IMG/VR virus record: IMGVR_UViG_2821904334_000002
Strand: one strand, 5' to 3'
Length of the DNA: 63,470 nt
Origin: an uncultured virus (IMG/VR IMGVR_UViG_2821904334_000002)
Taxonomy: Duplodnaviria > Heunggongvirae > Uroviricota > Caudoviricetes
A model generated the notes under the pieces. That model made no database searches, was not told where the DNA came from, and saw only the letters and a list, made by a program, of their open reading frames with translations. The translations under genes were made by a program, and so were the position numbers. Below are positions 25,733 through 44,174 of this stretch, piece after piece. How positions within the stretch are numbered: position 1 is the stretch's first letter; every line of letters begins with the position of its first letter.

Positions 25733-25733
25733 G

Positions 25734-27538: not shown

Positions 27539-27541
27539 TAG

Positions 27542-28885
27542 GTGACAAAATTGTGTACAGAACAATGTAAAGCAGAAGATTGTCAAGAAAAAGTAATAGC
27601 AGACGGGTATTGTTATATACATTTTATGTTTGTAAGTAGTAAAACGAAAGATAAGAGTCAAAAGGCAAAAGAAATAATGATGGAAAACTACAATATAATC
27701 TGTATCGAACAAGATTGCGAAGATACAAAGACCTACAAGGATAGATGTGATAAACATACTACGTTACATCACTTACAAGAAGTAGTTCAAATTTGTAAAG
27801 TAAAGGGATGCTTAAACGAAGTACATCAAGATAAGTTATGTAAGTATCATAGTAGACACAATAAAGTATTGGGTTTCATCATAGAAACTGTACCTACTGT
27901 TAGACTTTGTAAGGAATTAGGTTGTCTTCACGATGGGGTATACAAGCAATATTGCGAAAAGCATTACATTGAGCATAAACAGAAGGAGAATGAAATAGAA
28001 GATTTATTATGTAAAGAAGAACAATGTAGTGCAATAGCTGAAATAAAAGGATATTGTTTAACTCATTATAAACCTGATAAGAAACAAAGCATTATCGTAG
28101 ATAAGACAGAAAAAGTAGTCGGAACGTTAGAAATGTCGAATAGATGTGGTATAAAAGATTGCACAGACGTCTTAATTGATGAAGATTTTTGTGAAAAACA
28201 TGCTAACTTAATAAGTTCGCAAGTGTCTGTAGAAGAATCGAATAGCAATTCAAGTTTTGTAAAGAAATCTATACAGACTTGCATCGTAGATGGTTGTGTT
28301 CACTTAGAACACAAATTTGGGTTATGCGAATATCATTATAATGACATAGGTGAATTAGGAGACTTTAAATCAGACAAAGAAGTATTTGAAGACCGAAGAT
28401 GTGCGGTAGAAGATTGTAGTTCAAAACGTACTAAGGTAATCAAAGACTCTTGTTTCTGTAAGTCACATTATGATGGGTTCGTGAATAGAGAAAAGATAGC
28501 AAAGAAAATCAAGAAGAAAACTGAGAAACTATGTAATGTATTTGAGTGTAATGAACCTAGAGATACAAGACTCTATTGTTCGTATCATGCGGAGCATATC
28601 AAGATGGGGTATGACTTTGAAATGAAAGACTGGTGTAGCCAGTCAGGGTGTAAAGAAGAAGCAAACATGATGATAGGTAAGAAATACTATTGTAAGAAGC
28701 ATGGAACTTGTAGGGAGAAGTATTGTAGGAATACGGTTCATCATAACGGTTTATGTCAAGAGCATTTGGCACAAAAGAAAGAAGCGAAACATTGTAAAAC
28801 CATGAATTGTAAGGAGAAAGTGTATAGAAGTGGATTTTGTAAAGAACACTATACAATGGTAAAGAATCTAGAAAGAGGGGTCTGA
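27542..28885 (+). CDS. Divergent Cys3His finger protein, about 12 fingers
   Basis: More acidic, degenerate C-x4-C...C-x2-H repeats. Confidence 0.75.
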   Translation: MTKLCTEQCKAEDCQEKVIADGYCYIHFMFVSSKTKDKSQKAKEIMMENYNIICIEQDCEDTKTYKDRCDKHTTLHHLQEVVQICKVKGCLNEVHQDKLCKYHSRHNKVLGFIIETVPTVRLCKELGCLHDGVYKQYCEKHYIEHKQKENEIEDLLCKEEQCSAIAEIKGYCLTHYKPDKKQSIIVDKTEKVVGTLEMSNRCGIKDCTDVLIDEDFCEKHANLISSQVSVEESNSNSSFVKKSIQTCIVDGCVHLEHKFGLCEYHYNDIGELGDFKSDKEVFEDRRCAVEDCSSKRTKVIKDSCFCKSHYDGFVNREKIAKKIKKKTEKLCNVFECNEPRDTRLYCSYHAEHIKMGYDFEMKDWCSQSGCKEEANMMIGKKYYCKKHGTCREKYCRNTVHHNGLCQEHLAQKKEAKHCKTMNCKEKVYRSGFCKEHYTMVKNLERGV

Positions 28886-28886
28886 T

Positions 28887-29237
28887 TTGGGTACTTGTAA
28901 AGTAGAACATTGTGGTAGAAACACGAGAGCAAAAGGTTACTGTCACAAACACTATCAACAGTATTTAAGAACAGGGACAACATGGTTAGGTTACAGTGAA
29001 TTTCCTACAAAACAGTGTGAAGTACCAGACTGTGATGGTAGGCACTTTGCGAAGGGGTATTGTAACCGTCATTATCAGCAATTTAAGGTACATGGAGAAG
29101 TTAAAACTGATTTAGAAGTACAACAAGAAAGGGTTTGTTCCGTAGACGGTTGTTGTGGAAAGGTACTTGCAAAGAAAATGTGTGGTAAACATTACTATCA
29201 AGTAAGACGTAAAGGAAAAGTTGTGCAATTAGCATAG
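28887..29237 (+). CDS. Cys3His finger protein, 3 fingers
   Basis: Three repeats. Confidence 0.8.
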   Translation: MGTCKVEHCGRNTRAKGYCHKHYQQYLRTGTTWLGYSEFPTKQCEVPDCDGRHFAKGYCNRHYQQFKVHGEVKTDLEVQQERVCSVDGCCGKVLAKKMCGKHYYQVRRKGKVVQLA

Positions 29238-29264
29238 GAAACAATAAGGTAAGGAGTCTTTTAG

Positions 29265-29519
29265 ATGTCAAAAGGTCAATGTGAAGTAGCAGGATGCAGT
29301 ACACCCGTACACTCGAAAGGGTATTGTAATAAACACTACCTTCAAATATGGAAACATAAGAAATTAACACCTGAGTTAGAAAGAATGAAGGTAAACGATT
29401 GTATCATACCGAATTGCGAAGGTAAGGTGCGTTCGAAGGGGTATTGCAGTAAACATTATTATCGCTTTGTTTTAAAGGAAAGGGAGAAGTCTAAAGAAAC
29501 AGATAAAACTATACAGTAA
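29265..29519 (+). CDS. Cys3His finger protein, 2 fingers
   Basis: Two repeats, LTPELE linker. Confidence 0.8.
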   Translation: MSKGQCEVAGCSTPVHSKGYCNKHYLQIWKHKKLTPELERMKVNDCIIPNCEGKVRSKGYCSKHYYRFVLKEREKSKETDKTIQ

Positions 29520-29522
29520 GAG

Positions 29523-29948
29523 GTGGATACGGTGACGATTTGCAAGGAAGAAGGTTGCAATTCGAAACAACACGCTAAAGGATTATGTAACACACATTAT
29601 CAAAAGAGTAGACGAAATTCTTTACATACAGGTAGTAATACATGCAAAGTAGACACTTGTAATTTACCCCACTACGCAAAGGGGTATTGTAATAAACATT
29701 ATCAAAGCAGAAGGATGACTAAGATAATAAGAGACAAACCACCTAAACCAAGAAAAGTATGTAAAGTAGAGGGTTGTCAGTTAGACCATAGAGCAAAAGG
29801 TTATTGTCAAAAACATTATTATCAAGTAAAGAATAATGGTAAGGTGTTAGATAAAGTATTACAGGTAGACTACTGTATTATCGAGGGGTGTCACCGAGTC
29901 AGGGAAGCTAAGGGGTATTGTCCGAAGCATTATCAAAGAGTATATTAA
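29523..29948 (+). CDS. Cys3His finger protein, 4 fingers
   Basis: Four repeats. Confidence 0.8.
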   Translation: MDTVTICKEEGCNSKQHAKGLCNTHYQKSRRNSLHTGSNTCKVDTCNLPHYAKGYCNKHYQSRRMTKIIRDKPPKPRKVCKVEGCQLDHRAKGYCQKHYYQVKNNGKVLDKVLQVDYCIIEGCHRVREAKGYCPKHYQRVY

Positions 29949-30315: not shown

Positions 30316-32541
30316 ATGAAGAAATCAGTTAAGAAGCAAGCAGTCGCACTATCCACTACATTAGCAGTTCTAGGTGGAATGCCAGTAGGAGCATTAGCAG
30401 AAGAAACGGTTAAAACTGAGGTAGACCAGTTAAGAGTCTCTGAAAGTGACCAAGTTGAACAGAATAGTCTATATGGTTCTGATTTGCAACTGGAAAACAA
30501 AAAGGAAGAAGTTAAGCAAGAAGTTAAACAAGCAACGGCAGAAGTGAAAACGGAAGTTGCAAAAGAAGAAGTAAAACCAGAAGCTACTACTGAAAACAAA
30601 GTAGTAGAAGTAAAGAAAGAAGAGAAGGTTGAACCTGTTAAACAAGAAGAGGTAAAACAGCCTGTAAAAGAAGAGAAACCGGAAGTTAAGCAAGAAGTGA
30701 AACAACCTCAACAAAAGCAAGAAGTAAAAGAAGAGGTTAAGCCTGAGGTTAAACCGGAAGTTAAACCTGAAGTAAAGCAAGAAAACAAGGAAGTAAAACC
30801 GGAAGTTAAGCAAGAAGAAGCTACACATGAAGAAGCAGGGCATGAGCATAAAACTGTAGAAGATGTGCAAAAAGCTAAAACTGGTGAAGTAACAGAGTTT
30901 GAAGCGTTACAAAACATCCATAATGCTTTTAAAGGTGAAGACGGTAAAGGTGATGGAAGTTCTCGTGAAATCGCACCTAAACGTGCTAAACGTTCATTAG
31001 CTTTCAGCGCACCTTCTCAAACTACACAGAAAAAGGGTTCAATTGCAGGTATTCCTTTCACTGAATGGATTGTTCCAGCAGGAAACTTAGATATTCGTCC
31101 ACAAAACCCTATGAAAGCAAAGTATATTACGATTCACGAAACAGCGAACACAGAACGTGGAGCAAACGCTGAGAATCATGCGAAATACCTTTACAATCAA
31201 GCAACTCAAGGTACTTTCAGAACAGCTTCATGGCATTTCACTGTAGACGATAAAGAAATCTACCAACACTTACCTACAAATGAAAACGGTTGGCACGCAG
31301 GAGACGGTCAAGGTTCAGGGAACATGGAATCTATTGGTATCGAGATTGCAGTTAACCAAGACGGTGATTACAATAAAGCAGTTGAAAACGCTCAAAAACT
31401 TGTTGCTCATTTAATGAAACAAGAAGGTATCAGTGGAGATAACTTACGTAGACACCAACAGTGGAGTGGTAAGAAATGTCCTGATATTATGATTACAAAA
31501 GGTAACTGGAATAACTTTGTCAGTGGTGCAAAAGGATTTGCAGGTCAAGGGGTAGGGATTGATAAACCTCTTGAAGAGAAAGAAGAAACAGTAAATCCAA
31601 ACGAGCATAATCCCGCATCACCTAATATTAAGTTAACGATTAATGGTTATGGGGTAAACGTTCGTAGTGGAGCAGGTCAAGAGCATGGTGTTGTAGATAA
31701 ACTGAACAAAGGTCGTGAGTTCAAGGTATTATCTATTAAAAACGGTTGGTATGAAATCGAAAAAGGTAAATGGGTATACTTTAACCCAAGTTGGATTAAA
31801 CTGACTTATAATGCCTACGATAAACCAGTACAACCTGAGCAAAAACCAGAAGTGAAACCTGAGCAACCAAAACCTGAGGAAAAACCACAAGTACAACAAG
31901 GTAAGAAAATTGTTGTAAACGGTCAAGGGGTACGCCTACGTAGTGGAGCAGGTACAAACCACGGTGTTGTTGGAAAAGCACAATATGGTCGTACTTACGA
32001 TGTATTAGAAGAATCAAACGGTTGGGTGAAAACTTCTGATGGTTGGTTATACAACGATTCTAGTTATATCCGAACAATCAATAATGGTGGAGGAAATTCT
32101 AATCAAGGTGGGAATACTGGTGGAAACCAAGTACAACAAACTGGTAAAAAGATTATTGTAAAAGGTAATGGAGTTCGTATCCGTAGTGGAGCAGGTCAAA
32201 ACCACGGAGTATCAGGCTATGCATCGTATGGTCAAGAGTTCACTGTAGAAGCAGAATCAAACGGTTGGGTGAAAACTTCTAAAGGTTGGATTTACAATGA
32301 TTCTAGCTATATTCAAACTGTAGGTCAAGGTGGAGGTAACTCTAACCATGTACAAGCAGGTAAGAAGATTCAAGTAAACGGTAGTGGTGTTCGTATGCGT
32401 CATGGAGCAGGTTTAAACCACGGTGTTAGCGGATATGCTTCTAAAGGCAAAACATATACTGTACATGCTGAATCTAATGGTTGGGTACAAGTAGACGGTG
32501 GTTGGATTTACAACGACTCTAGTTACATTCGCTCACTATAA
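30316..32541 (+). CDS. Secreted N-acetylmuramoyl-L-alanine amidase (Amidase_2) with EVK(Q/P) low-complexity region and four SH3b domains
   Basis: Signal peptide; ITIHETAN, SWHFTVD, GWHAGDG, SIGIEI, HQ.WSGK.CP; four G.GVR.RSGAG..HG...GW repeats. Confidence 0.9.
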   Translation: MKKSVKKQAVALSTTLAVLGGMPVGALAEETVKTEVDQLRVSESDQVEQNSLYGSDLQLENKKEEVKQEVKQATAEVKTEVAKEEVKPEATTENKVVEVKKEEKVEPVKQEEVKQPVKEEKPEVKQEVKQPQQKQEVKEEVKPEVKPEVKPEVKQENKEVKPEVKQEEATHEEAGHEHKTVEDVQKAKTGEVTEFEALQNIHNAFKGEDGKGDGSSREIAPKRAKRSLAFSAPSQTTQKKGSIAGIPFTEWIVPAGNLDIRPQNPMKAKYITIHETANTERGANAENHAKYLYNQATQGTFRTASWHFTVDDKEIYQHLPTNENGWHAGDGQGSGNMESIGIEIAVNQDGDYNKAVENAQKLVAHLMKQEGISGDNLRRHQQWSGKKCPDIMITKGNWNNFVSGAKGFAGQGVGIDKPLEEKEETVNPNEHNPASPNIKLTINGYGVNVRSGAGQEHGVVDKLNKGREFKVLSIKNGWYEIEKGKWVYFNPSWIKLTYNAYDKPVQPEQKPEVKPEQPKPEEKPQVQQGKKIVVNGQGVRLRSGAGTNHGVVGKAQYGRTYDVLEESNGWVKTSDGWLYNDSSYIRTINNGGGNSNQGGNTGGNQVQQTGKKIIVKGNGVRIRSGAGQNHGVSGYASYGQEFTVEAESNGWVKTSKGWIYNDSSYIQTVGQGGGNSNHVQAGKKIQVNGSGVRMRHGAGLNHGVSGYASKGKTYTVHAESNGWVQVDGGWIYNDSSYIRSL

Positions 32542-32866: not shown

Positions 32867-34894
32867 ATGAAAAAGTCAATTAAGAAGCAAGTAGTCGCAC
32901 TAACAACTGGATTAACAATTCTAGGAAGCATTCCATTAAACGCATTAGCAGACCAAACAGACAAATTACAAGTGGCAACTGGGGAACATTTAAATCAAGG
33001 TTCTAACCTTGCAAACATCGAATTAAAAACACCTGATGTAAAAATTAATGAGTCTGAAATCTCACCAAACGAAAAGGTATTATTAGAAGAATACAAGCAC
33101 AAACATGATACATCGGCTGAAATGGAAAAGATGAAAGAAGCCAAAACGGGTGCAGTAGACCCTAACGAAGCGGTACAAAATGTAGAAAATGCATTTAAAG
33201 ATGTAGACGGTAAGGGTGACGGTAGTTCTCGTGAAATGACACCTAAACGTCAAAAGCGTTCTCTAGCATTTGCACCTGCAAGTCAAACTACAAAACGTTA
33301 TGGTACATTAGCAGGAACTAAATTTGTAGAGTGGATTGTGCCAGCAGGTAACATTGATATCCGCCCACAAAACCCTATGAAAGCTAAATATATTACAATC
33401 CATGAAACTGCAAACACTGAACGTGGTGCAAACGCAGAAGCACATGCAAAGTACTTATATAACCAAGCAACTCAAGGGACATTCCGTACTGCATCATGGC
33501 ACTTTACAGTGGACGATAAACAAATCTATCAACACCTTCCAACGAATGAGAACGGATGGCACGCAGGAGACGGGAATGGACCCGGAAACCGTGAGTCTAT
33601 TGGTATTGAAATCGCTGTAAACCAAGATGGAGACTACAATAAAGCATTAGAAAACGCTAAACGTCTAGCAGGTTACTTAATGAACAAAGAGGGTATCCCT
33701 GCAAGTAACATCGTAAAACATCAACATTGGTCAGGTAAGAAATGCCCAGACATCATGATTTCTCGTGGTAACTTTGCAGGATTCGTACAAGGCATTGAAT
33801 GGTATTCAAGTTTAAATAACAACATTGAAGGAATGTCAGACAAGCAAGAAGACAACAATTCAAATGAAGTAAACCCTGCTGAACCAGTTATGGAACTAGT
33901 AGTAAAAGGTTACGGTATTAATATCCGTAGTGGAGCAGGAATCGAGAATGGGGTAGTTGGTAAAGCAAACGCAGGTGATAAATTCCGAGTATTAGCAGTT
34001 AAAAACGGTTGGTACAAAACAGAAAAAGGTTGGATTTTCTATGATTCAAGTTACATTAAAATTAACTATAATGTAGAAAACCCACTTCCAAAACCTGAGG
34101 AAAAACCAAAACCTGAAGTGAAGCCTGACCCTAAACCTGAGCCACAACCTGAGCCTAAACCACAACCAACTGATGATATTACTGGTGGATGGTTCGAACC
34201 ACATGTACGTGAATTAAACAAACGTGGAATTATGGTTGGTGAAGGAAACGGGGTATTCGCACCATACCGTGCAGTAACTCGTGCGGAATTTGCTAAGTTA
34301 ATCTCTAACTCTTTACAACTTCCAAGTGGCGATGCAAACTTTAAAGATTTAGACCAAGCACACCCAACATTACAAGATGGTATTAAACGTGCTTCAAGTG
34401 CAGGAATCATTAATGGTCGTGGTGACGGTATCTTTGACCCTAACTCACCAATTACTCGTGAAGAGTCAGCTATCATGGTAGACAAAGCGTTACAATACAA
34501 AGGTATTAAAGGTGATGCTTCTGTACCATTAAAATTCCGAGACAAACATCTTATCAACTACAAAGAAAACGTTACAAGACTATATAGTTTAGGTATCGCT
34601 AACGGAAATGAGAATGGTGAGTTCAGCCCACAAGGAACAACAACTCGTGGTGAGTCAGCCGCATTCCTAGTTAGAATGTTAAACGTAATGGAAGAAACAA
34701 AAGTAATTGGAACAGCTTACATTGACCAAGATATTGAAGTACATGCTGAAAGTGGAAACTGGACTGATGTAGTTCGTACATTAACAAAAGGAAATACAGT
34801 AAACGTATATGCAGAGCATGGAGCTTGGATTCAAATTGGTAAAAACGAATGGATTAAAAACGATACTAGCAAAATCCGTTATGTAAAAGACTGA
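32867..34894 (+). CDS. Secreted Amidase_2 with SH3b, three SLH domains and a C-terminal SH3b-like domain
   Basis: Same amidase motifs; SLH motifs VTRAEFA, ITREESA, TTRGESA. Confidence 0.9.
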   Translation: MKKSIKKQVVALTTGLTILGSIPLNALADQTDKLQVATGEHLNQGSNLANIELKTPDVKINESEISPNEKVLLEEYKHKHDTSAEMEKMKEAKTGAVDPNEAVQNVENAFKDVDGKGDGSSREMTPKRQKRSLAFAPASQTTKRYGTLAGTKFVEWIVPAGNIDIRPQNPMKAKYITIHETANTERGANAEAHAKYLYNQATQGTFRTASWHFTVDDKQIYQHLPTNENGWHAGDGNGPGNRESIGIEIAVNQDGDYNKALENAKRLAGYLMNKEGIPASNIVKHQHWSGKKCPDIMISRGNFAGFVQGIEWYSSLNNNIEGMSDKQEDNNSNEVNPAEPVMELVVKGYGINIRSGAGIENGVVGKANAGDKFRVLAVKNGWYKTEKGWIFYDSSYIKINYNVENPLPKPEEKPKPEVKPDPKPEPQPEPKPQPTDDITGGWFEPHVRELNKRGIMVGEGNGVFAPYRAVTRAEFAKLISNSLQLPSGDANFKDLDQAHPTLQDGIKRASSAGIINGRGDGIFDPNSPITREESAIMVDKALQYKGIKGDASVPLKFRDKHLINYKENVTRLYSLGIANGNENGEFSPQGTTTRGESAAFLVRMLNVMEETKVIGTAYIDQDIEVHAESGNWTDVVRTLTKGNTVNVYAEHGAWIQIGKNEWIKNDTSKIRYVKD

Positions 34895-34974: not shown

Positions 34975-35529
34975 ATGGATAAATTAACAGAAGACTTGTT
35001 AAGAGAAATGTATGTAGAGAAAGGTATGTCAGACCGAGAGATAGGGGATTTATACGGAGTCACAAGAGCCAATATATCTTATCATAGAAAGAAATGGGGT
35101 ATAGAAGGGAAACCCTCTTTATCAAAGAAAGCGATTCAAGACGTACAAAATAAATTAGATTCTTTAGGGTATACAGTAGAGAACATGAAGGAAAAAGATA
35201 CACATCATATATTTGATTTGTTAGTAGATGATATAGTAAGACTCGATATTCGGTCTACAGAAACATTACAAGAGGATACTTTTAGATTTAAGCTATTAGA
35301 TAGTGATAATTCGTGTTTACTAGAATCAGATAATAGACTTCAATTGAAAAATGGTCGAACTAAGAAGATTTTAAGAAACACATGTGATTTTGTAATACTT
35401 GTAGGCTACTTAAAAGGCGTACCGAATTTTTGGGTAATTCCTTCACGAGACCTAAAAGATGATTTAAACGGTATCTCAATCAGACCCTATTCAGATTCTA
35501 GTAAGTATTTAGAGTATAAAGATTCATAG
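34975..35529 (+). CDS. HTH-repeat (x1) + PD-(D/E)XK-like domain protein; stop at the family's conserved C-terminal Trp
   Basis: LTEDLLREMY...SD.EIG..YGV...R..WGI; FDLLV...RLDIR; TCDFVILVGY...FWVIPS. Confidence 0.7.
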   Translation: MDKLTEDLLREMYVEKGMSDREIGDLYGVTRANISYHRKKWGIEGKPSLSKKAIQDVQNKLDSLGYTVENMKEKDTHHIFDLLVDDIVRLDIRSTETLQEDTFRFKLLDSDNSCLLESDNRLQLKNGRTKKILRNTCDFVILVGYLKGVPNFWVIPSRDLKDDLNGISIRPYSDSSKYLEYKDS

Positions 35530-35786
35530 GGTAATATTAGTAAAACCGCTAAGTTGTATAGAGCGAATAAAATAGGCTAATTTTACCAATTAGGGGTAGA
35601 AAAAGTAAAAGGCTTAATGATTTTGATTCCCTAGTAGAGAAAGAGAAACGGATTTATAAGAAATAGGTAAAAAGAAGCATGAAGGTTAAACGAAAAAGAT
35701 AAAGTAAAGAACTATACTCTTTATCCTATTAAATATAAAGTTTAATTACATATACATAGATAAAATATACAAACTAGATAGTAGGA

Positions 35787-36368
35787 GTGGTTAAAGTGGC
35801 AGTAGTTACAGAGCAAGAGTTAAGAAACCTATATGAAGTACAAGGTAAAACAGATAGACAGATTGCAGAAGAGTGTGGGGTAGATAGAACTCGTATCTCG
35901 CAATTACGTAAGCAATGGGGAATTAATACAAGACCTACTGTATTTGACAAAGGTATAAAAGACGTAACAGATAAATTAGAGTCTTTGGGTTTTAAAGTAG
36001 AGAACGTAAAGAAAGAAGATAAAACAGCAAACTATGATTTATTGCTAAATGATAGTATCAAGGTTGAAGTGAGAACATCATCAACTATAGACAGAGGTAG
36101 ACAGCACTTTAGAATAGTAGAACAAGCTTCCACAGGGGTAGTCGAGTCAGATGTTCGTATTAAACTAAAGAATGGTCATTTTAGAAAGTTATTTAGACGA
36201 ACATGTGATTACATTATCTTTGTAGGATATGAAGAAGGAAACATTAACTATTGGGTGATGCGTTCAAGTACGGTTACAGATACGATTCAAAGCCTTGGAC
36301 TAAATATTTCACCATTAGTAACAAGTAAATTCGATGTATGCAGGGATGCGTGGCACACAATTTTATAA
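35787..36368 (+). CDS. HTH-repeat (x1) + PD-(D/E)XK-like domain protein
   Basis: YDLLLN..IKVEVR; TCDYIIFVGY. Confidence 0.7.
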   Translation: MVKVAVVTEQELRNLYEVQGKTDRQIAEECGVDRTRISQLRKQWGINTRPTVFDKGIKDVTDKLESLGFKVENVKKEDKTANYDLLLNDSIKVEVRTSSTIDRGRQHFRIVEQASTGVVESDVRIKLKNGHFRKLFRRTCDYIIFVGYEEGNINYWVMRSSTVTDTIQSLGLNISPLVTSKFDVCRDAWHTIL

Positions 36369-36402
36369 GAGGTAGAGAATATTTAGAAGAGAGGTGATAA
36401 AT

Positions 36403-38745
36403 ATGTCAGTCAGACTATGTAGTATAGAAGGTTGTGAAAACAAGCATGTAGGTAAAGGATATTGTGATAAACATTACAGACAAATGTATAAGTACGGTAG
36501 AATCCTTACAGACGAGGAAGTAGCGGAGTTAAAGAAACAAAAGTACGCAAACAGAAAACCTTCTTCTAGAGTTTATACAAATGCTATATCGAAAGAAGAG
36601 TTAACGAAACTGTATATAGAAGATGATTTGTTAGATACAGAAATAGCAGAACTAAAAGGTGTCTCTAACGGAACAGTAGGTAGGTTACGTAAGAAATATG
36701 GTATCAAAACAAAACCACCTAAGAAACTCTTTACAAAGGAAGAGTTGGTCGAACTCTATGTGAATAGGGGTATGACGGATGAAGAAATCGGAAAACTGAA
36801 AGATGTTGGGTATTACATTATAGGTAATCTAAGAAAAGAATATGGTATCAAAACTTTAAATCGAGTTGTACCAATCGAGAAAAGAATGGTAGCAACTAGA
36901 GAAGAAATGGAAAAACTATACTTAGCTAGAAAACTAAGTGATGCTCAAATATCTGAAATGTTGGGTTGTTCTGTTCATACCGTTCAATTAATGCGTAAAC
37001 ATTATGGTATCGAAACAAGACAAAGAGAGTACATTTTAACGAAAGAACAGTTACATCATTTGTATGTGGTAAAAGGATTAAGTGATTCGGAGATAGCAGA
37101 CCAAATAGGTGTTGTGCAAAGTCATGTAAGTATCATGAGACGAAAGTATGGTATCGAAACAAGGGAGACAATAGATGCCCTTGCAGTACCATATGTTGCA
37201 AGAGTCTTAGAAAATAAGGGGTATCGTGTCTTAAACGTAAGAGAAAAAGACCACTCTTCTTTCTATGACTTACTGGTAAATGATACAGTTCGTATAGATG
37301 TTAGAGCAACAGCTTTTATGCAGGAAGATACATTACGATTTAAATTCTTAGATAAAGATGCATCAAACTATACAGATAGCGATTCAAGACTTTTAGTAGA
37401 TAGTGGTCGTACAAAAAGAAAGCTTTATGAAACATGTGATATCTTGGTATTAGTGGGGTATATAGAAAACAAACCTCATTGTTGGGTAATTCCAGTTAAG
37501 GATTTAAAGCCAAACTTACAAGGTATCGGAATCAGACCGTATTCGGTTCGAAGTAAATACAGTATCTATGAAGAAGCATGGAAGTTAATTAAAGTACCGA
37601 AAGAGATATTAACCAAGAAAGAGTTAGAAAGACTGTATGTAACAGAGAATTTATCAGATAGTAGAATAGCGAAACGAGTTGGAGTAAGTACAGCAACGAT
37701 AGGAAACTTGAGAAGAGCATACGGTATTAAAGCAAAACGAGATGTGCAAGAAATGACAAAGAAAGAGTTAGAGAAACTGTATGTAGACGAAGGTTTAACA
37801 GATAAAGAGATAGCAGAACGAAAAGGTACGTACCCTACAAAGATTAGGCGTCTAAGAGAAAAGTGGGGTATTGAAACAAAGTCTAGAGCTACAATTAGTA
37901 AAGAGGAATTAACTAAACTGTACGTAGATGAAGGAATGTCAGATAAAGAAATATCAAAACAAAAAGATGTATCACTCGAAACTGTGTATCGTTTAAGAAG
38001 AGAATACGGTATCAAATCAAGACCTTCTATACCAATACTAACAAAAGAACAATTGTACCAGTTATACGTTATACAAAGATTATCGGATAGTAAGATAGGA
38101 GACATATATAAGGTATCCAAGACAACAATTGCAAATTTAAGAAAAGAGTATAATATCGAAGCAAACCCTACAATTTCTCTTGTAACTAAAGAACAATTAC
38201 AACATCTGTACGTAGAAAAGGAAATGAGTGATGGTCAAATAGGAAAATTGTTTGGGGTAACTAGAGAATCAATTTTAAAATACAGAAACAAGTATGGTAT
38301 CTCTACAAGACTTACAATAGCAAACAAAGCAATCCAAGACGTAGGAAATCATTTAGTTCAATTGGGTTTTCATATAGTCAATGTAAGAGGGATAGACTAC
38401 GCTTCTTTTTACGATTTACTGTTGAATAATAGACTACGTATAGATATAAGAGCGACTGAATACATGACAAAAGATGGATTCTTTAAGTTTAAATTACTAG
38501 ATAAGGATGAATCAAACTATATAGGTAGTAATTCAAGACTCATTGTAGATAGCGGTAGAACCAAAAGAAACCTACATGATACATGTGATTTCGTTATTTG
38601 CGTAGGGTACTATAATAACAGACCTTACACATGGGTTATACCTTCAAAAGATTTAAGAAAAGACTTACAAGGTATATCAATAAACCCTAATCTAGAAAAC
38701 AGTAGATACTTGAGATATTCGGAAGCTTGGCATCTACTAAGATAA
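36403..38745 (+). CDS. Cys3His finger + 4 HTH + PD-(D/E)XK-like + 5 HTH + PD-(D/E)XK-like fusion protein
   Basis: GAGGTG SD; N-terminal CSIEGC..GYCDKHY; nine KE.L..LY...SD.EI....V.....LR..YGI repeats; two YDLL.N..RID(V/I)R domains. Confidence 0.75.
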   Translation: MSVRLCSIEGCENKHVGKGYCDKHYRQMYKYGRILTDEEVAELKKQKYANRKPSSRVYTNAISKEELTKLYIEDDLLDTEIAELKGVSNGTVGRLRKKYGIKTKPPKKLFTKEELVELYVNRGMTDEEIGKLKDVGYYIIGNLRKEYGIKTLNRVVPIEKRMVATREEMEKLYLARKLSDAQISEMLGCSVHTVQLMRKHYGIETRQREYILTKEQLHHLYVVKGLSDSEIADQIGVVQSHVSIMRRKYGIETRETIDALAVPYVARVLENKGYRVLNVREKDHSSFYDLLVNDTVRIDVRATAFMQEDTLRFKFLDKDASNYTDSDSRLLVDSGRTKRKLYETCDILVLVGYIENKPHCWVIPVKDLKPNLQGIGIRPYSVRSKYSIYEEAWKLIKVPKEILTKKELERLYVTENLSDSRIAKRVGVSTATIGNLRRAYGIKAKRDVQEMTKKELEKLYVDEGLTDKEIAERKGTYPTKIRRLREKWGIETKSRATISKEELTKLYVDEGMSDKEISKQKDVSLETVYRLRREYGIKSRPSIPILTKEQLYQLYVIQRLSDSKIGDIYKVSKTTIANLRKEYNIEANPTISLVTKEQLQHLYVEKEMSDGQIGKLFGVTRESILKYRNKYGISTRLTIANKAIQDVGNHLVQLGFHIVNVRGIDYASFYDLLLNNRLRIDIRATEYMTKDGFFKFKLLDKDESNYIGSNSRLIVDSGRTKRNLHDTCDFVICVGYYNNRPYTWVIPSKDLRKDLQGISINPNLENSRYLRYSEAWHLLR

Positions 38746-38776
38746 ACTAGAAAGTAGAAAGGAGGTAGTTTATCCT

Positions 38777-39937
38777 ATGGCATTTAAACTATCAAAAGAA
38801 GAATTGAAGAAGCTATATGTAGAAGACGGGTTAAATGATAGGCAAATTGCAGAGTTAAAGGGTGTAAATACATCTACAATCAGACGGTTAAGAGTAAAGT
38901 ACGAAATTGAAACAAGGGGTAGACATGCAGTAGACCCGAAGCAAGTATTAACTAAAACAGAATTAGAAAGATTGTATATAGAAGAATGTTTATCAGATAA
39001 AACAATCGGAAAACAAGTAGGTTTAAGTCATTCAACTGTACATCGGTTACGAGTGAAATACGGTATCGAAAGAAGACCTGTAAAAAGAGCCTTTACAGAA
39101 GAAGAGTTAAAACAGCTATACATCAAAGAAGGTAAGACGGATGAGCAGATAGCAAAGTTAAGGGGTATTACGGCAGGAGCAGTAACGCATTTACGGAAGG
39201 TCTATGAGATTGAAGCAATAGAGAGGGCTATCATACCGAAAGAAGTACTACTAGACTTATATGTAAAACAGAAAATGACGGATAAAGAAATAGCGGAACG
39301 ATATAATTGTGCAGAAAAGACGGTTTGTAGTTTAAGAAAAAGATTTGGTATACAAGCAAACAGAAAAAGATGTTCCTTATCGAAAGAGCAAGTATATAAC
39401 TTATATGTAGAAAAAGGTTTAAGTGATAATCAAATTGCAAACTTATATGGTACATATTCCGCTACCATTTCCAGTTTGAGAGAGCGTTATGGTATTCAAA
39501 CAAGGGAAGTCATAACAGACTATTCATTACCTTATGTATACAATATCTTAGTCCAACTAGGATTCCAAGTAGAAAACATGAGACAGCATACACATATGTT
39601 ATTTTATGATTTCTTACTAAACGGTAGAATTCGTATAGATGTAAGAACATCTACTACTTTCTACAATAACAGTATAAACTTCAAATTATTAGATAAGGAT
39701 AATTCAGGCTACACGGAATCAGATGTAAGACTAAGAGTAGATAGTGGAAGAACAAAGAGAAATATACGAAATACGTGTGATTACGTGATTTGTGTGGGGT
39801 ATATAAAAGGAAAACCTCATTGTTGGGTGATACCTTCTAGAGATTTAAAGGAAAACTTACAAGGTATTACAATTAGACCGTATTCAAACAGAAGTAAATA
39901 TAATTTCTATGCAGAAGCTTGGCAACTAATTAAATAA
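38777..39937 (+). CDS. 5 HTH repeats + PD-(D/E)XK-like domain
   Basis: GGAGG SD; five repeats; YDFLLN..IRIDVR; CDYVICVGY...HCWVIPS. Confidence 0.75.
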   Translation: MAFKLSKEELKKLYVEDGLNDRQIAELKGVNTSTIRRLRVKYEIETRGRHAVDPKQVLTKTELERLYIEECLSDKTIGKQVGLSHSTVHRLRVKYGIERRPVKRAFTEEELKQLYIKEGKTDEQIAKLRGITAGAVTHLRKVYEIEAIERAIIPKEVLLDLYVKQKMTDKEIAERYNCAEKTVCSLRKRFGIQANRKRCSLSKEQVYNLYVEKGLSDNQIANLYGTYSATISSLRERYGIQTREVITDYSLPYVYNILVQLGFQVENMRQHTHMLFYDFLLNGRIRIDVRTSTTFYNNSINFKLLDKDNSGYTESDVRLRVDSGRTKRNIRNTCDYVICVGYIKGKPHCWVIPSRDLKENLQGITIRPYSNRSKYNFYAEAWQLIK

Positions 39938-39969
39938 GAAACATTATCTTAAACGAGGTGGTAATCGTT

Positions 39970-40323
39970 ATGTCAGATAAGATGAGTAAGGAAGACTTAA
40001 TAAGAAAGATTCAGCAAAGCCCAAGCGGTAAAGTTTGGAATGAAGATGAAATCAAGCAGTTATTAATGACAAACCCAAAAGCAGTATATAATGGGATTCT
40101 TGCGATTTATAAGCTACAAACGGAAGAAGAGAAGAAAAGTCGTGAGACTCAAGTACAAAACGGTATAGGTTTCAATGCAAACGATAGTGTGATTATGTCT
40201 AGCTTTGCAGAACAGATATTACAAGGTAAGATATTATCACAAAGGCAATTTAGAGTTGCATCAAAACGTATACTCAAATACGTAAATCAATTAACGGATA
40301 TAGCAAACGAGGATTACTATTAA
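39970..40323 (+). CDS. Conserved phage-type hypothetical protein
   Basis: IY..QT.EE...T...NGIGFN..D...SSFAEQ.....LS..Q motif recalled from phage proteins. Confidence 0.6.
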   Translation: MSDKMSKEDLIRKIQQSPSGKVWNEDEIKQLLMTNPKAVYNGILAIYKLQTEEEKKSRETQVQNGIGFNANDSVIMSSFAEQILQGKILSQRQFRVASKRILKYVNQLTDIANEDYY

Positions 40324-40350
40324 GAGTGTTTCACGAAAAGAGGGGTAGTC

Positions 40351-41124
40351 TTGTCTGTGTTAACAGAGGTTGAACTAAGAGAACTGTATGAAATACAAGG
40401 TAAGACAGATAAAGAGATAGCTGAGTCATTAGGTATAAACAGATTAAGAATAACAAGATTAAGAAAGAAATACGGAATAGAGACGAGGTATTCTAATTAT
40501 AAAGGGCGACAACCAAATAAAGAAAAGGATGAGAAACGAAATAGAGAAAAGGATAAGAAACTGGAGAAAGAAATAAGAGATTTGTATGAGGTGCAATGTA
40601 AAACAGATAAAGAAATCGGTAAATTAAAAGGTATGAATAGAGAAAGCGTATCTAGATTACGAAAGCGATTAGGAATCCAAACAAGACCTAAACTTAATGA
40701 GAAAGCAGTACAAGATGTAATAACTAAGTTAAAAACGTTAGGTTATACAGTAGAGAATGTAAAAGAAGTTAATAAGACGGAAACTTATGATTTACTACTA
40801 AATAATCGAATTAAAGTAGATGTTCATTCTTCCTCGTTTGTGGAGAAAAGTAGTATGTATTTTCGATTAGACGAAAAAGAAGAAACAGGTGTAATCGAGT
40901 CAGCTACAAGAATTAGACTCAAAAATGGCAAGTATAGAAAATTATTCAGAAAGACTTGTGATTACATTATATTTATAGGGTATGAGGGTACAAATATTAA
41001 TTTTTGGATTATGGACTCTTCTGATTTACCTGATGAACTTCAAACGATTCGACTTGTTAACGATAAAGCAACAGATAGTAAGTATTCAATCTACAGAGAC
41101 GCATGGAATAAACTAGTAAAGTAA
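40351..41124 (+). CDS. 2 HTH repeats + PD-(D/E)XK-like domain
   Basis: YDLLLNNRIKVDVH; TCDYIIFIGY; closest to 35787-36368. Confidence 0.7.
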   Translation: MSVLTEVELRELYEIQGKTDKEIAESLGINRLRITRLRKKYGIETRYSNYKGRQPNKEKDEKRNREKDKKLEKEIRDLYEVQCKTDKEIGKLKGMNRESVSRLRKRLGIQTRPKLNEKAVQDVITKLKTLGYTVENVKEVNKTETYDLLLNNRIKVDVHSSSFVEKSSMYFRLDEKEETGVIESATRIRLKNGKYRKLFRKTCDYIIFIGYEGTNINFWIMDSSDLPDELQTIRLVNDKATDSKYSIYRDAWNKLVK

Positions 41125-41135
41125 GAGGAATTAAA

Positions 41136-41465
41136 ATGAAACTATGTAATGTAGAGGGTTGTAATAGTAAACATCGAGCAAAAGGTTATTGTCCAAGACA
41201 TTATAGACAAGCTAGAGCAGGGAAAGAGATTACATTGGAGTATATCAATCAAACTGGTAGGATTTGTAGTCTAGATGGATGTAACCGAAAGCATAGAGCA
41301 AAAGGGTTGTGTAAATTACATTATGACAATGCGAGATATATAGTAAGACCCTCTAAACCTGTAAGACTATGTACAGTAGTAGGTTGTACAAGTAAACATC
41401 AAGCAAAAGGAATGTGTTTAAATCATTACAATCAGAAGCGATATAAAGAATTAAAGACGAAGTAA
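41136..41465 (+). CDS. Cys3His finger protein, 3 fingers
   Basis: Three repeats. Confidence 0.8.
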   Translation: MKLCNVEGCNSKHRAKGYCPRHYRQARAGKEITLEYINQTGRICSLDGCNRKHRAKGLCKLHYDNARYIVRPSKPVRLCTVVGCTSKHQAKGMCLNHYNQKRYKELKTK

Positions 41466-41484
41466 GAAAGAAAGGTGTAAGGGG

Positions 41485-41940
41485 TTGGAGACTAGAACTT
41501 GTAGTATAGAAAGGTGTAACGAAAAGCATCAAGCAAAAGGTTATTGTAAACGACACTATCAACAAATTAATACAGGTAGGGAAATAACTCTTAAAGGGGC
41601 AGATAAAACTTGTACAGTTGAAGGTTGTAACAAGAAAACAAAAGCAAAAGGGTTGTGTCCAACTCATTATCAAAGAATGAAATTAACTGGTTCAACGGAA
41701 AAGAAGATTATAGAACAACGTATTTGTAAAGTTGAAACTTGTAATGAGAAGCATTTAGGTAAGAGGTACTGTAGAAGACATTATCATCAATTTAAAACTA
41801 AAGGTAAAGTAACGATTGAAGGTAGATTATCAGATAGAACTTGTAGTGTAGAAGCTTGTAACAATAAGTATCATACAAAAGGAATGTGCCAAAAACATTA
41901 CACTAGATGGTATAGAAACGAGAAAAAGAAAGACAAATAA
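41485..41940 (+). CDS. Cys3His finger protein, 4 fingers
   Basis: Four repeats. Confidence 0.8.
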   Translation: METRTCSIERCNEKHQAKGYCKRHYQQINTGREITLKGADKTCTVEGCNKKTKAKGLCPTHYQRMKLTGSTEKKIIEQRICKVETCNEKHLGKRYCRRHYHQFKTKGKVTIEGRLSDRTCSVEACNNKYHTKGMCQKHYTRWYRNEKKKDK

Positions 41941-42350: not shown

Positions 42351-44174
42351 GTGGCAATTAAACCAGATGTATTAGAAGCAATTAATTACTATACAGAGGT
42401 AACTGGTGAGTCGGTATCGCAGTTCTTAGAAGGTATTGATTCATTACTTACAGTAAACGAAGAAGAGTTAACAAATAATGATTGGTTACGTAAACAAATA
42501 GCGAAGCTAATCAAGAATAAAGGGGTATCTCTAGACGAGATTATCAAGAACAAAGATTTATTAATGGCAAAGGATACAAAAGAGGAAGACGGAAGTTTTT
42601 ACACGCCTTTAGAGTGGGCGGCTGAGACTCATAGAATGATAGAAAGATATATTCCGAATTTAGAAGATTATGTTGTATGGGATGCAAGTTGTGGTTCAGG
42701 AAACCTACTAGCTGAGTTACCACCATGTAAAGAGTTATATGTTTCCACATTACATCAAGAAGACGCTGAAATCGTACAGCAACGTTTACCACATGCTCAT
42801 GCATTCCAGTTAGACTTCTTAACAGGAATTGACTACAACGAGTGGGTAACGGAATTTACAGACATTCTACCTGAGGGATTACAACGAGCGTTAAGAAATA
42901 ATGAACCGATACTTTTCTTAATGAACCCACCATATAGTATTACCAACGCTCATAAAACACAAGTTGCAAAACATTTAAAAGCGATTGGTAAAGAGGAACT
43001 TGCTTCTGATTTACTAAGACAGTTCGTATGGCGTGTATATAACTTAGTAGATATTCATGGACTCTCCAATTCATACTTCACATTAATTGGTACAAACAGT
43101 CTTTACATCATGAATTCATGGGAGAGTACAGTAAGAGAAATGCAAGAACATGCAGACTACTTAGAAGGATTTACATTCCCTGCCAGTGAGTTTGCAGGTA
43201 TTGAGAAATCAGTTCAGTGGGGTATCTTCTCTACGATTTGGAAGACAACTGAGTTGCGTACTGTAGAAACTTTACCTAACATTCAAATGACGGCAAAGAA
43301 GAAGGATGAAAACGGAGTTATTTATGATGATGGGGTATTGGATTTTGTATGGGACAAACAATACATGCCAAACTGGATTCAAAGTAAAATAACGAAAGGG
43401 AATCGTATTACAGTTCCAGTTACTTCTGTTAGGGGTGTTCCAAAGGTAGACGCTAATGGAGAAGTATCTACGGTAACAGGGTTAGACAATGCACTTGGTT
43501 ACTTCTTAGTAAAAAGTACATTCAAAGACATTGCTAACTTCAATGGTATTGGTACATTACCGATTACACTTGGTACTGTTCCTGTAACAGAAGAGAATTT
43601 CAAAGACGTATGTGGTTGTTTCGCATTCTTATCTACATACAAGAATGATTTCAATGATTTAGCAAGACCTTTTAACGAACCACATACAGGTTCAGATGAG
43701 TATCGTGAGTGGATAGCAAACAGTATCTTATTCTCTATATGTGCAAGAAAAGGGTATATGTTCTCTGTTCGAAACATTGAGTTTAATAGAGAAATCAATA
43801 GTGTAAACTCTACTATCTTCCCATTCTCACATGAACAGGTAAGAGAGTACTGTCAAGATGAGAAGGTACTAAAAGACTTAGAAGAAAACCTAGTAGATAA
43901 TTCTTACTTCCTAAACTTAATAGAAGAATCTATGCCTTATGCTTGGGAAGGGGTATTGAACCTTTACAATGCAGTAACGAACTTCATTAAGCAGTCTTAT
44001 AATTACAGACATACAATGGATTACGAAGGAAGTACAGTAGCTTGGAACGCTGGATTCCATCAGTTGAAACAAACAGCTATTTGGACAGACGAAATGGAAG
44101 AAGCATATGTACAAGCCTTATCAATCGCACGAGACGAGTTTAGAGAAAGAGTAAAAACTCATTACATCGTCTAA
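42351..44174 (+). CDS. N6-adenine DNA methyltransferase (gamma-class motif order) with a large C-terminal putative target-recognition region
   Basis: GSFYTP (motif X), VWDASCGSGNLL (motif I), LDFL, MNPPY (motif IV). Confidence 0.85.
   Translation: MAIKPDVLEAINYYTEVTGESVSQFLEGIDSLLTVNEEELTNNDWLRKQIAKLIKNKGVSLDEIIKNKDLLMAKDTKEEDGSFYTPLEWAAETHRMIERYIPNLEDYVVWDASCGSGNLLAELPPCKELYVSTLHQEDAEIVQQRLPHAHAFQLDFLTGIDYNEWVTEFTDILPEGLQRALRNNEPILFLMNPPYSITNAHKTQVAKHLKAIGKEELASDLLRQFVWRVYNLVDIHGLSNSYFTLIGTNSLYIMNSWESTVREMQEHADYLEGFTFPASEFAGIEKSVQWGIFSTIWKTTELRTVETLPNIQMTAKKKDENGVIYDDGVLDFVWDKQYMPNWIQSKITKGNRITVPVTSVRGVPKVDANGEVSTVTGLDNALGYFLVKSTFKDIANFNGIGTLPITLGTVPVTEENFKDVCGCFAFLSTYKNDFNDLARPFNEPHTGSDEYREWIANSILFSICARKGYMFSVRNIEFNREINSVNSTIFPFSHEQVREYCQDEKVLKDLEENLVDNSYFLNLIEESMPYAWEGVLNLYNAVTNFIKQSYNYRHTMDYEGSTVAWNAGFHQLKQTAIWTDEMEEAYVQALSIARDEFRERVKTHYIV

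What the first reader, a model, noticed from the sequence alone, without database searches (positions are those of the whole stretch)
36595..39500. Variable recognition helix in an otherwise conserved HTH repeat suggests a recognition code
Seen: the scaffold (LY, D.EI, LR..YGI) is near-invariant, but the second helix differs in every repeat: SNGTVGRLR, GYYIIGNLR, SVHTVQLMR, VQSHVSIMR, STATIGNLR, YPTKIRRLR, SLETVYRLR, SKTTIANLR, TRESILKYR, NTSTIRRLR, SHSTVHRLR, TAGAVTHLR, AEKTVCSLR, YSATISSLR. The other genes add TRANISYHR, DRTRISQLR, NRLRITRLR and NRESVSRLR. Established: in HTH domains these positions contact bases. Inference: each repeat may read a different short sequence, so arrays could be reprogrammed by shuffling repeats.
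Basis: partly seen in the sequence, partly recalled or inferred. Interest (0 to 1): 0.75.

Follow-up and report, generated by a model that had tools for sequence, protein, structure and literature searches.

The report
HTH-array proteins with homing-nuclease fold
Five neighbouring genes of a giant Bacillus plasmid each join one to nine small DNA-reading helix-turn-helix modules to a domain folded like a known homing endonuclease, so they are probably long-site DNA-cutting or DNA-gripping proteins of a known modular kind rather than carriers of a simple, reprogrammable recognition code.

Summary
They lie in five co-directional genes (34975-41124) of a relative of pXO16, the 350-kb conjugative plasmid of Bacillus thuringiensis.

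Each gene ends in a 140-aa domain with no Pfam family. Its model matches the PD-(D/E)xK homing endonuclease I-Ssp6803I (Z 15.3; next hit 9.4).

The five exposed helix-3 columns are the most variable of the module: 2.96 against 2.18 bits, p 0.006. Two of them are nearly fixed in 66 single-HTH relatives (R in 61, T in 45). So they look like specificity positions that were freed in the arrays.

A code is not shown:
- The repeats are only 26-64% identical.
- Between orthologues the recognition residues are conserved (dN/dS 0.04-0.15).
- No regular array geometry could be modelled.

The same HTH type is joined to Vsr-like, LAGLIDADG and DUF559 nucleases elsewhere. That is the known modular homing-endonuclease design of I-Bth0305I and Hef.

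One gene is a clean gene-sized indel against pXO16, and blocks of repeats are exchanged between alleles. The catalytic Lys is Arg or His in all six domains, so cleavage is uncertain.

Verdict: new variant of a known kind. Earlier AI notes of this scan describe similar HTH-array nucleases in other genomes.

The parts
34975..35529 (+). Gene A (184 aa): one HTH module (34999-35118) plus a C-terminal I-Ssp6803I-like domain (35110-35526)
   Evidence: (phrog_12058, E 8.5e-76)
35787..36368 (+). Gene B (193 aa): one HTH module (35817-35942) plus the C-terminal nuclease-fold domain (35931-36365). This is the protein that was modelled.
   Evidence: pLDDT 96.4; Z 15.3 to 2ost_A
36394..38745 (+). Gene C (783 aa): a fusion of two units, each an HTH array followed by a nuclease-fold domain. 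The fusion is also present in pXO16 and in two other alleles.
36412..36484 (+). N-terminal Cys/His zinc-type motif of gene C, one unit of the family repeated at least 35 times elsewhere in the window
   Evidence: phrog_5351 on residues 2-37; family D1
36598..37173 (+). HTH array 1 of gene C (modules C1-C4)
   Evidence: This block and the following domain are only about 26-57% identical per module to the pXO16 allele.
37168..37608 (+). Nuclease-fold domain 1 of gene C
37621..38319 (+). HTH array 2 of gene C (modules C5-C9)
   Evidence: It is 90-95% identical per module to pXO16.
38314..38742 (+). Nuclease-fold domain 2 of gene C
38777..39937 (+). Gene D (386 aa): five HTH modules (38801-39511) plus the nuclease-fold domain (39506-39934)
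   Evidence: (dN/dS 0.057 against pXO16)
40351..41124 (+). Gene E (257 aa): two HTH modules (40372-40494, 40570-40692) plus the nuclease-fold domain (40693-41121). It is absent from pXO16, where an 18-nt spacer stands in its place.
   Evidence: three runs of a relative join 40323 to 41169

Best explanation
The five genes are paralogues of one small, unannotated family (phrog_12058). Its members are built like phage-type modular homing endonucleases. At the N-terminus are one to five independent tri-helical HTH modules on short basic linkers. At the C-terminus is a PD-(D/E)xK domain of the I-Ssp6803I type. I propose that the C-terminal domain pairs up, as its structural relatives do. In the 783-aa protein this pairing would occur within one chain, because it carries two such domains. 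The paired domains would sit on a central site, while each HTH module docks its helix 3 in a successive major groove. Together they would read a long site of tens of base pairs, each module with its own preference. The ancestral single module next to the nuclease domain keeps a fixed R-T contact. The added modules have diversified at exactly those positions. The genes then act as selfish or competition elements of the plasmid: they cut or nick related plasmids that lack them or carry another allele. Shown here: the architecture, the fold, the variability pattern, purifying selection, the indel and the mosaic alleles. Inferred: DNA binding module by module, pairing of the domains, cleavage and homing.
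For: Fold. The gene B model (pLDDT 96.4) matches I-Ssp6803I with Foldseek E 7e-6. VIA-align gives Z 15.3, rmsd 2.8 A, 132 of 148 residues, and the next entries score 9.4. Those next entries are restriction enzymes and Hjc resolvases.

Family. 77 representatives were found among 1.84 billion proteins, most about 190 aa with one HTH plus this domain. Of 64 single-HTH representatives, 33 carry the full E, D, (D/E)xK set at the canonical positions.

Window copies. All 6 keep the D and the D/E.

The same HTH type on known nuclease domains. The repeat profile hits the Hef-like homing endonuclease of Vibrio phage VP-1 (i-E 4e-10; tblastn E 3e-6). That protein has a Vsr-like domain (22.4 bits, below Pfam's cut-off of 27). 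Other relatives carry LAGLIDADG_3 (P0004, 23.1 bits, cut-off 22.5) or DUF559 (P0007, 31.6 bits, cut-off 20.6). I-Bth0305I of a B. thuringiensis phage has two N-terminal HTH motifs plus a Vsr-like nuclease (PMC3239194, passages).

Mobility-like signs:
- Gene E is a clean gene-sized indel in an 18-nt spacer.
- The first unit of gene C is replaced in pXO16, while its flanks are 88-89% identical.
- Modules 7-9 are replaced in allele P0084.
- The two viral-contig relatives are small free-standing genes in phage replication regions.

Specificity positions. Function is maintained: dN/dS 0.04-0.15.
Against: The catalytic Lys is Arg in 5 and His in 1 of the 6 window domains. The helix-1 Glu is absent in all 6.

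Among 64 relatives, loss of that Glu and of the Lys goes together: 35 have both, 23 have neither, 6 are mixed. That pattern suggests inactivated enzymes.

The family is not scattered next to different target genes. In pXO16 all 16 matches lie within 100461-105381 of 349,600 bases.

Genes A to D keep their places in both plasmids under strong purifying selection. That suits a host function as well as a selfish one.

Gene E is most like gene B (66.7% nucleotide identity to the pXO16 B gene), so it could be a local duplication, or a deletion in pXO16.

No sequence-level link to I-Ssp6803I was found. No intron or intein is present: 0 Rfam families in the window. No target site is known. In I-Bth0305I, the contacts assigned to the HTH region were judged largely nonspecific.
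Confidence: 0.5

Rival explanations
1. Domesticated homing-endonuclease relatives. The nuclease fold is catalytically dead and serves only to pair the protein and hold DNA. The proteins would be site-specific regulators or organisers of the plasmid's own DNA, for example at its many identical promoters.
For: Lys is replaced by Arg or His and the helix-1 Glu is lost in 6 of 6 domains. Glu and Lys are lost together in 23 of 64 relatives. Selection is strongly purifying and synteny with pXO16 is stable. All copies lie in one co-directional cluster between two perfect promoters at 32655 and 42275. GenBank annotators called the pXO16 gene a putative transcriptional regulator. At least 15 copies of one promoter with a conserved spacer occur in the window.
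Against: The positive charge at the Lys position is kept in every copy of this Bacillus subgroup. The pXO16 copies have 4 Arg and 1 Lys. Other Glu-less relatives have Met, Leu or Phe there. Both acidic residues are kept in 6 of 6. The gene-sized indel and the block replacements look like conflict genes. No binding site was identified.
Confidence: 0.32
2. A true recognition code. Each module would read a fixed short word set by a few helix-3 residues, independently of its neighbours. Arrays could then be rebuilt at will, as with TALE or zinc-finger arrays.
For: The scaffold is conserved and helix-3 positions are the most variable. Those positions are fixed in single-module relatives. In some orthologous module pairs the changes are concentrated in the helix, for example 4 of 5 recognition residues against 3 of 20 other surface residues. 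Natural block exchange occurs.
Against: The repeats are 26-64% identical and differ over the whole surface. Module spacing varies from 47 to 54 residues. No confident array geometry was obtained (pTM 0.24). The excess of recognition-residue change among orthologues is weak. In the studied relative, contacts assigned to the HTH region were judged largely nonspecific. HTH domains in general follow no simple residue-to-base code (established knowledge, recalled).
Confidence: 0.08
3. Decaying remnants of duplicated genes without function.
For: Catalytic residues are altered. Many paralogues sit in tandem.
Against: All frames are open in both plasmids. dN/dS is 0.04-0.15 at dS 0.23-0.52.
Confidence: 0.02

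Closest known systems
I-Ssp6803I (PDB 2ost), the PD-(D/E)xK homing endonuclease of a cyanobacterial group I intron
   Same: The C-terminal domain has the same fold over nearly the whole chain: Z 15.3, rmsd 2.8 A, 132 of 148 residues. About half of the wider family keeps a canonical E, D, (D/E)xK set.
   Different: There is no detectable sequence similarity. I-Ssp6803I has no separate DNA-binding domain and reads its 23-bp site as a tetramer (PMC3384342, passages). The proteins here add 1-5 HTH modules, are not in an intron and have Arg or His at the Lys position.
I-Bth0305I and Hef-type homing endonucleases (EDxHD / Vsr-like family) of phages
   Same: Same plan: N-terminal tandem HTH ('NUMOD') modules and a C-terminal nuclease of the restriction-enzyme superfamily (PMC3239194, passages). 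The HTH modules are detectably related. The hosts overlap, since I-Bth0305I comes from a B. thuringiensis phage.
   Different: The catalytic domain is of another branch, I-Ssp6803I-like rather than Vsr-like. There was no Vsr or DUF559 hit. Arrays here reach 5 modules per unit and 9 per protein, against 2 in I-Bth0305I and about 4 in the VP-1 protein.
I-TevI, I-HmuI and the free-standing Seg/Mob endonucleases of T4-type phages
   Same: A nuclease domain is tethered to a string of small DNA-binding modules that cover a long site. The genes stand free between other genes (recalled; also mentioned in PMC3239194).
   Different: Those enzymes have GIY-YIG or HNH catalytic domains at the N-terminus and mixed module types. 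Here there is one module type, repeated, at the N-terminus.
Cbp1, the CRISPR repeat-binding protein of Sulfolobales (NCBIfam NF040595)
   Same: Cbp1 is made of three HTH modules in a row. Residues 7-141 of the 386-aa protein align to positions 5-133 of its 135-position profile (E 1.8e-8).
   Different: The score of 34 bits is far below the family cut-off of 140. Cbp1 has no nuclease-fold domain.
C2H2 zinc-finger and TALE arrays
   Same: A conserved scaffold with the greatest variability at DNA-facing positions of each repeat.
   Different: The fold is different. The repeats here are much more diverged (mean 42% identity). No residue-to-base rule is known or shown.

Membership tests
I-Ssp6803I-type PD-(D/E)xK homing endonucleases | Core fold of I-Ssp6803I | tested here: met
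   VIA-align Z 15.3, rmsd 2.8 A, 132 aligned of 148, next entry 9.4. Foldseek E 7.4e-6, TM 0.71 on the target.
I-Ssp6803I-type PD-(D/E)xK homing endonucleases | Catalytic D ... (D/E)-x-K | tested here: not met
   D and D/E are present in 6 of 6 window domains. K is replaced by R in 5 and by H in 1. 40 of 64 relatives have K. Residue-by-residue superposition on 2ost could not be done, because no coordinates were available and the structure paper is not held.
I-Ssp6803I-type PD-(D/E)xK homing endonucleases | Sequence similarity to the family | tested here: not met
   A profile of 66 relatives against all PDB sequences at E up to 10 returned 11 sequences, none of them 2ost.
I-Ssp6803I-type PD-(D/E)xK homing endonucleases | Encoded in a self-splicing intron and cleaves the intron-less allele | tested here: not met
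   0 Rfam families at gathering score in the window. The genes stand free between other genes. Cleavage is not testable here.
Modular HTH (NUMOD-type) homing endonucleases such as I-Bth0305I and Hef | Tandem HTH modules joined to a nuclease domain, with related HTH modules | tested here: met
   1-5 modules per unit. The repeat profile hits the VP-1 Hef-like protein at i-E 4.3e-10. tblastn gives 26.8% identity, E 3e-6.
Modular HTH (NUMOD-type) homing endonucleases such as I-Bth0305I and Hef | Vsr-like EDxHD catalytic domain | tested here: not met
   No Vsr or DUF559 hit at E up to 0.1. The fold is I-Ssp6803I-like.
Modular HTH (NUMOD-type) homing endonucleases such as I-Bth0305I and Hef | Presence/absence polymorphism at a fixed site between related genomes | tested here: met
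   This holds for gene E only. It is absent from pXO16, with both flanks aligned up to an 18-nt spacer, and there is no copy elsewhere in pXO16. The direction, gain or loss, is unknown.
Modular HTH (NUMOD-type) homing endonucleases such as I-Bth0305I and Hef | Site-specific double-strand cleavage and biased inheritance | not testable with these tools
   Needs biochemistry and mating experiments.
Code-type repeat arrays (TALE, C2H2 zinc fingers) | Repeats alike except at a few specificity residues | tested here: not met
   Pairwise identity of the 18 repeats is 26-64%, mean 42%. Several helix-1 and helix-2 surface columns reach 2.6-2.95 bits.
Code-type repeat arrays (TALE, C2H2 zinc fingers) | DNA-facing positions more variable than the rest of the surface | tested here: met
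   2.96 against 2.18 bits, p 0.006. Among orthologues the effect is weak.
Code-type repeat arrays (TALE, C2H2 zinc fingers) | Regular superstructure that follows the DNA groove; one module reads one subsite | tested here: inconclusive
   The five-module model has mean pLDDT 58.9 and pTM 0.24 from an alignment of only 4 sequences.
Cbp1 (NF040595) | Score at or above the curated cut-off | tested here: not met
   34.4 bits against a cut-off of 140.
LuxR/GerE or sigma-70 region 4 regulators (the names given by some sources) | One C-terminal HTH domain behind a receiver, ligand-binding or sigma core domain | tested here: not met
   Only generic HTH families match, each on single modules (HTH_23 E 1e-30 and 5e-17). 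No regulator-type partner domain is present. The remaining domain has the nuclease fold.

The most novel reading that the evidence does not exclude
The arrays are a natural modular DNA-reading system. Each 48-aa module reads its own short word through about five helix-3 residues. Exchange of module blocks between alleles re-targets the protein. The 783-aa protein is a single-chain pair of two array-plus-nuclease units, a natural counterpart of an engineered ZFN or TALEN pair. If so, module preferences could be tabulated and arrays rebuilt.
Probability: 0.13. Interest if true: 0.75.

Novelty: new variant of a known kind. Interest (0 to 1): 0.45.

Why it matters
It gives a fold and a likely role to an unannotated family (phrog_12058, 'unknown function'; 'hypothetical protein' in pXO16). 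It also adds a sixth type of nuclease partner to one widespread HTH module. That module is already seen with Vsr-like, DUF559, LAGLIDADG, HNH-labelled and restriction-like domains.

The contrast between a fixed R-T contact in single-module relatives and free variation in arrays marks which residues to test for specificity.

If the proteins cut DNA, they would be compact long-site nucleases whose reach is set by the number of modules. They would also be a hint at gene-level conflict between giant Bacillus plasmids. If they do not cut, they are an example of a homing-endonuclease scaffold turned into a DNA-binding protein.

Tried and rejected
- Phage collection, megablast with the 6.3-kb cluster: no match.
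- Window's own genome: none is held.
With the six window domains it gave 2 viral contigs and 0 loci in genome contigs.
- PDB sequence search: only HTH hits, no nuclease.
- Literature searches: 'tandem helix-turn-helix' with 'homing endonuclease' gave 2 papers, the one listed irrelevant. 'pXO16' with 'homing endonuclease' gave 0 papers. The I-Ssp6803I structure paper (PMC1864971) is not held, so its catalytic residues were not compared one by one.
- PADLOC: only weak hits. These were REase_II at E 6e-4 on gene B, and mad1 and Cas3c on single HTH modules. No defence system is assigned.
- Tandem Repeats Finder: no DNA-level array under the HTH repeats, so the copies are old.
- AlphaFold on the five-module protein: low confidence (pLDDT 58.9, pTM 0.24). 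It shows 15 helices in five triplets but no usable array geometry, and its nuclease domain is poorly modelled.
- Expression: contigs from two libraries recorded as RNA hold the pXO16-type form of the cluster in 18-22 kb contigs. Such contigs cannot show transcription and may be DNA carry-over. The parts without cover there (36588-37431, 40386-41018) are the parts that differ from pXO16.
- ESM Atlas: only leads below 0.9 (PDDEXK_16 and DpnI clusters).
- Earlier notes of this scan: none for this genome. Similar architectures are noted on other DNA.
The test was then done on the numbers.
- Considered and set aside: that the conserved promoter family is the target of the arrays. Nothing links them.
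Full report
**Where the window comes from.**
The 6.3-kb cluster has no near match among 50,697 phage records. It matches ten Bacillus thuringiensis plasmids of about 349.6 kb at 90% identity over 71% of its length. One of them, pAM65-52-2-350K, is listed in Table 2 of a review as pXO16, the giant conjugative plasmid of serovar israelensis (PMC6199540, passages). The window is therefore a diverged relative of pXO16. No whole genome is held for it. In pXO16 the genes are annotated as hypothetical proteins or as a 'putative DNA-binding transcriptional regulator'.

**The observation.**
Five co-directional ORFs carry the repeat: A 34975-35529, B 35787-36368, C 36394-38745, D 38777-39937 and E 40351-41124.
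- A profile made from the repeats finds 18 copies in the six-frame translation, at i-E 1e-13 to 1e-21. Nothing else scores better than i-E 1.7.
- The copies are 1, 1, 9, 5 and 2 per gene.
- Y, D, I, R and the last I of the scaffold are invariant in 18 of 18.
- AlphaFold gives three helices per module. The variable 'second helix' is thus helix 3, the recognition helix.
- There is no tandem repeat at DNA level. Pairwise protein identity of the modules is 26-64%, mean 42% (the figures are approximate by one residue in 40). The copies are therefore old.

**Is the helix more variable than the rest of the surface?**
Columns 27, 31 and 28 have the highest entropy of the 42 module columns: 3.41, 3.04 and 3.00 bits. 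The five exposed helix-3 columns average 2.96 bits, against 2.18 for 13 other non-core columns (one-sided Mann-Whitney p 0.006). The excess is moderate, since helix-1 columns 6 and 7 have 2.95 and 2.71 bits. I chose the column classes after seeing the data.

A stronger argument comes from relatives. In an alignment of 66 proteins with a single module (mean column identity 32%), column 27 is R in 61 and column 28 is T in 45, at 0.53 and 1.69 bits. The positions that vary most in the arrays are thus among the most constrained where the module stands alone next to the C-terminal domain. In the window, R at column 27 survives in five modules: those of A and B, the last module of C, and both modules of E. 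This is the behaviour expected of specificity-determining DNA contacts.

Every unit ends in a domain of about 140 aa with no Pfam family. PHROGs places all five proteins in phrog_12058, 'unknown function', with E from 3e-64 to 0. A search of 1.84 billion representatives with this domain finds only 77 proteins at E up to 0.001. Most are about 190 aa, that is, one HTH plus the domain.

The gene B model built on 66 relatives is confident: pLDDT 96.4, pTM 0.88. Foldseek ranks the four chains of I-Ssp6803I first (E 7e-6 to 9e-5). VIA-align gives Z 15.3, rmsd 2.8 A and 132 of 148 residues. The next entries, at 9.4 and below, are methyl-directed restriction enzymes, Hjc resolvases, SPARDA nucleases and PvuII. 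I-Ssp6803I is the founding PD-(D/E)xK homing endonuclease. It reads a 23-bp site as a tetramer and has no extra DNA-binding domain (PMC3384342, passages).

**Active or not?**
At the canonical positions (helix 1, strand 2, strand 3), 33 of 64 single-module relatives carry E, D and (D/E)xK. Presence of the Glu and of the Lys is linked: 35 have both, 23 have neither, 6 are mixed. The six window domains keep the Asp and the second acid in 6 of 6. They have no helix-1 Glu, and at the Lys position they carry Arg (5) or His (1). The five pXO16 copies have Arg four times and Lys once. This subgroup therefore always keeps a basic residue there, whereas other Glu-less relatives have Met, Leu or Phe. I could not superpose the residues on 2ost, because no coordinates were available and the structure paper is not held. 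Catalysis is thus open. I put it near even odds.

**The module is a homing-endonuclease module.**
- The HTH part gives only generic Pfam hits (HTH_23 and others).
- It matches PHROG families labelled HNH endonuclease (phrog_8446 at E 6e-60, phrog_7545 at E 3e-45 for gene C).
- By tblastn it matches 'Hef-like homing endonucleases' of Vibrio phages.
- The VP-1 protein lies between capsid and tail genes. It has about four such modules by eye, three of which the profile detects (i-E 4e-10, 6e-4 and 4e-4). It also has a Vsr-like domain at 22.4 bits, below Pfam's cut-off of 27.
- Metagenomic relatives join the module to LAGLIDADG_3 (P0004), DUF559 (P0007) and a restriction-enzyme domain (P0006; 21.1 bits, below its cut-off of 38.2).
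- Other relatives are arrays of 6 to 11 modules with no recognised nuclease.
- The studied enzyme I-Bth0305I, from a B. thuringiensis phage, has two N-terminal HTH ('NUMOD 2') motifs and a C-terminal Vsr-like nuclease. It dimerises through the nuclease domains. According to its authors, it draws most specificity from the central 14 bp, and the outer contacts are largely nonspecific (PMC3239194, passages).
- Three consecutive modules of gene D also align to the three-module protein Cbp1, far below its cut-off.

**Evolution between alleles.**
Against pXO16, dN/dS is 0.057 for D, 0.149 for the second unit of C, 0.113 for A and 0.124 for B, at dS 0.23-0.52. Neighbouring genes give 0.026 and 0.039. 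At the 25 recognition positions of D there are 0 non-synonymous and 5 synonymous differences.

Protein comparisons with five orthologues show recognition residues changing a little more often than other surface residues. Odds ratios are 1.1, 1.4, 2.7, 0 and 2.0, with p values of 0.84, 0.30, 0.013, 0.60 and 0.19. A few module pairs have the changes concentrated in the helix. The comparisons share some changes and are not independent.

The alleles are mosaics:
- The first unit of C (zinc motif, modules 1-4, domain 1) has no nucleotide match to pXO16 at its place, while the flanks are 88-89% identical. Its modules are 26-57% identical in protein.
- Allele P0084 has the window's modules 1-6 (86-100%) but different modules 7-9 (45-64%).
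- Allele P0003 differs again.
- Positional homology of modules is otherwise kept. The evidence is therefore for block replacement by recombination, not for free shuffling.

**Gene E.**
It is missing from pXO16. The stop codon of the upstream gene and the ribosome-binding site of the downstream gene align on both sides, and 18 nt stand in its place. pXO16 has no copy elsewhere: all 16 matches lie in 100461-105381. Contigs of three public runs of a relative show the same gene-less join. Gene E is most like gene B. Gain by homing, local duplication, or loss in pXO16 cannot be told apart.

**Context.**
The only perfect promoters in 32.5-42.4 kb lie at 32655 and 42275. A terminator-like hairpin follows the amidase gene at 34922. 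From gene B onward the genes are spaced by only 12-32 nt, but a 258-nt gap separates A from B. No Rfam family, and hence no recognised intron, is present. The two viral-contig relatives are single-module genes standing free in phage replication regions.

**Reading.**
These are members of the modular, phage-type homing-endonuclease design, with a new pairing of parts: a repeated HTH module in front of an I-Ssp6803I-like domain. Within one plasmid lineage the design expanded to arrays of up to five modules and to a two-unit fusion. Because the structural relatives work as dimers or tetramers, the fusion may be a single-chain pair. This is inference, and pairing could not be tested.

A code that allows reprogramming is not shown, and the divergence of the repeats makes it unlikely in the strict sense.

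Earlier AI notes of this scan describe HTH arrays joined to other nuclease domains in archaeal and phage DNA. They are unchecked. I used them only as leads, and I did not verify them.

Noticed in passing
window 19683-29948, 36412-36484, 41136-41940: There is a second, much larger module family. At least 35 copies of a 24-aa Cys/His unit (C-x3-GC ... KG-x-C-x2-HY) are strung in arrays in about a dozen ORFs (DNA repeat family D1). PHROGs calls them 'HNH endonuclease' (phrog_5351, phrog_1271), but only through this motif. Pfam finds only weak DUF5763 or Zf_WRKY19 hits and no HNH catalytic domain. One unit also heads gene C.
   Followed up: partly
window 1043, 2748, 3981, 5300, 7534, 13911, 19625, 22071, 24969, 26629, 30038, 32654, 42274, 47034, 56723, 57989, 59806: About 15-17 copies of one promoter occur in front of gene blocks. 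It has a perfect -35 and an extended -10 (TTGACA, 17 nt, TGGTATAAT), and the spacer and flanks are also conserved (repeat families D6, D8, D9, D18). The conserved spacer suggests a common regulator.
   Followed up: partly
window 1104-8648: Six ORFs of similar size (326-365 aa) stand in a row without any PHROG hit. Five of them lie behind a copy of the conserved promoter. Whether they are paralogues was not checked.
   Followed up: no
window 30316-32541 and 32867-34894: Two large paralogous cell-wall amidases carry SH3 repeats. The second also has three S-layer-homology domains (DNA repeats D10, D11, D14).
   Followed up: no
window 42351-44174: A 607-aa protein has weak N6-adenine methyltransferase signatures (N6_Mtase E 7e-4, MmeI_Mtase E 2e-3, PADLOC mad2 E 2e-5). 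It is 94.6% identical in DNA to pXO16, with dN/dS 0.026.
   Followed up: no
PDB 8vd6 ('CAP REPEAT'): The family profile hits a solved 185-aa repeat protein made of five near-identical 33-aa HTH-like units (E 1.6e-5). I did not look up what it is.
   Followed up: no
window 52317-55715 and 16237-17202: There are phage-type replication genes on this plasmid relative: a family-A-like DNA polymerase (phrog_17, E 4e-130) and a ligase-like protein (phrog_3869, E 1e-12).
   Followed up: no
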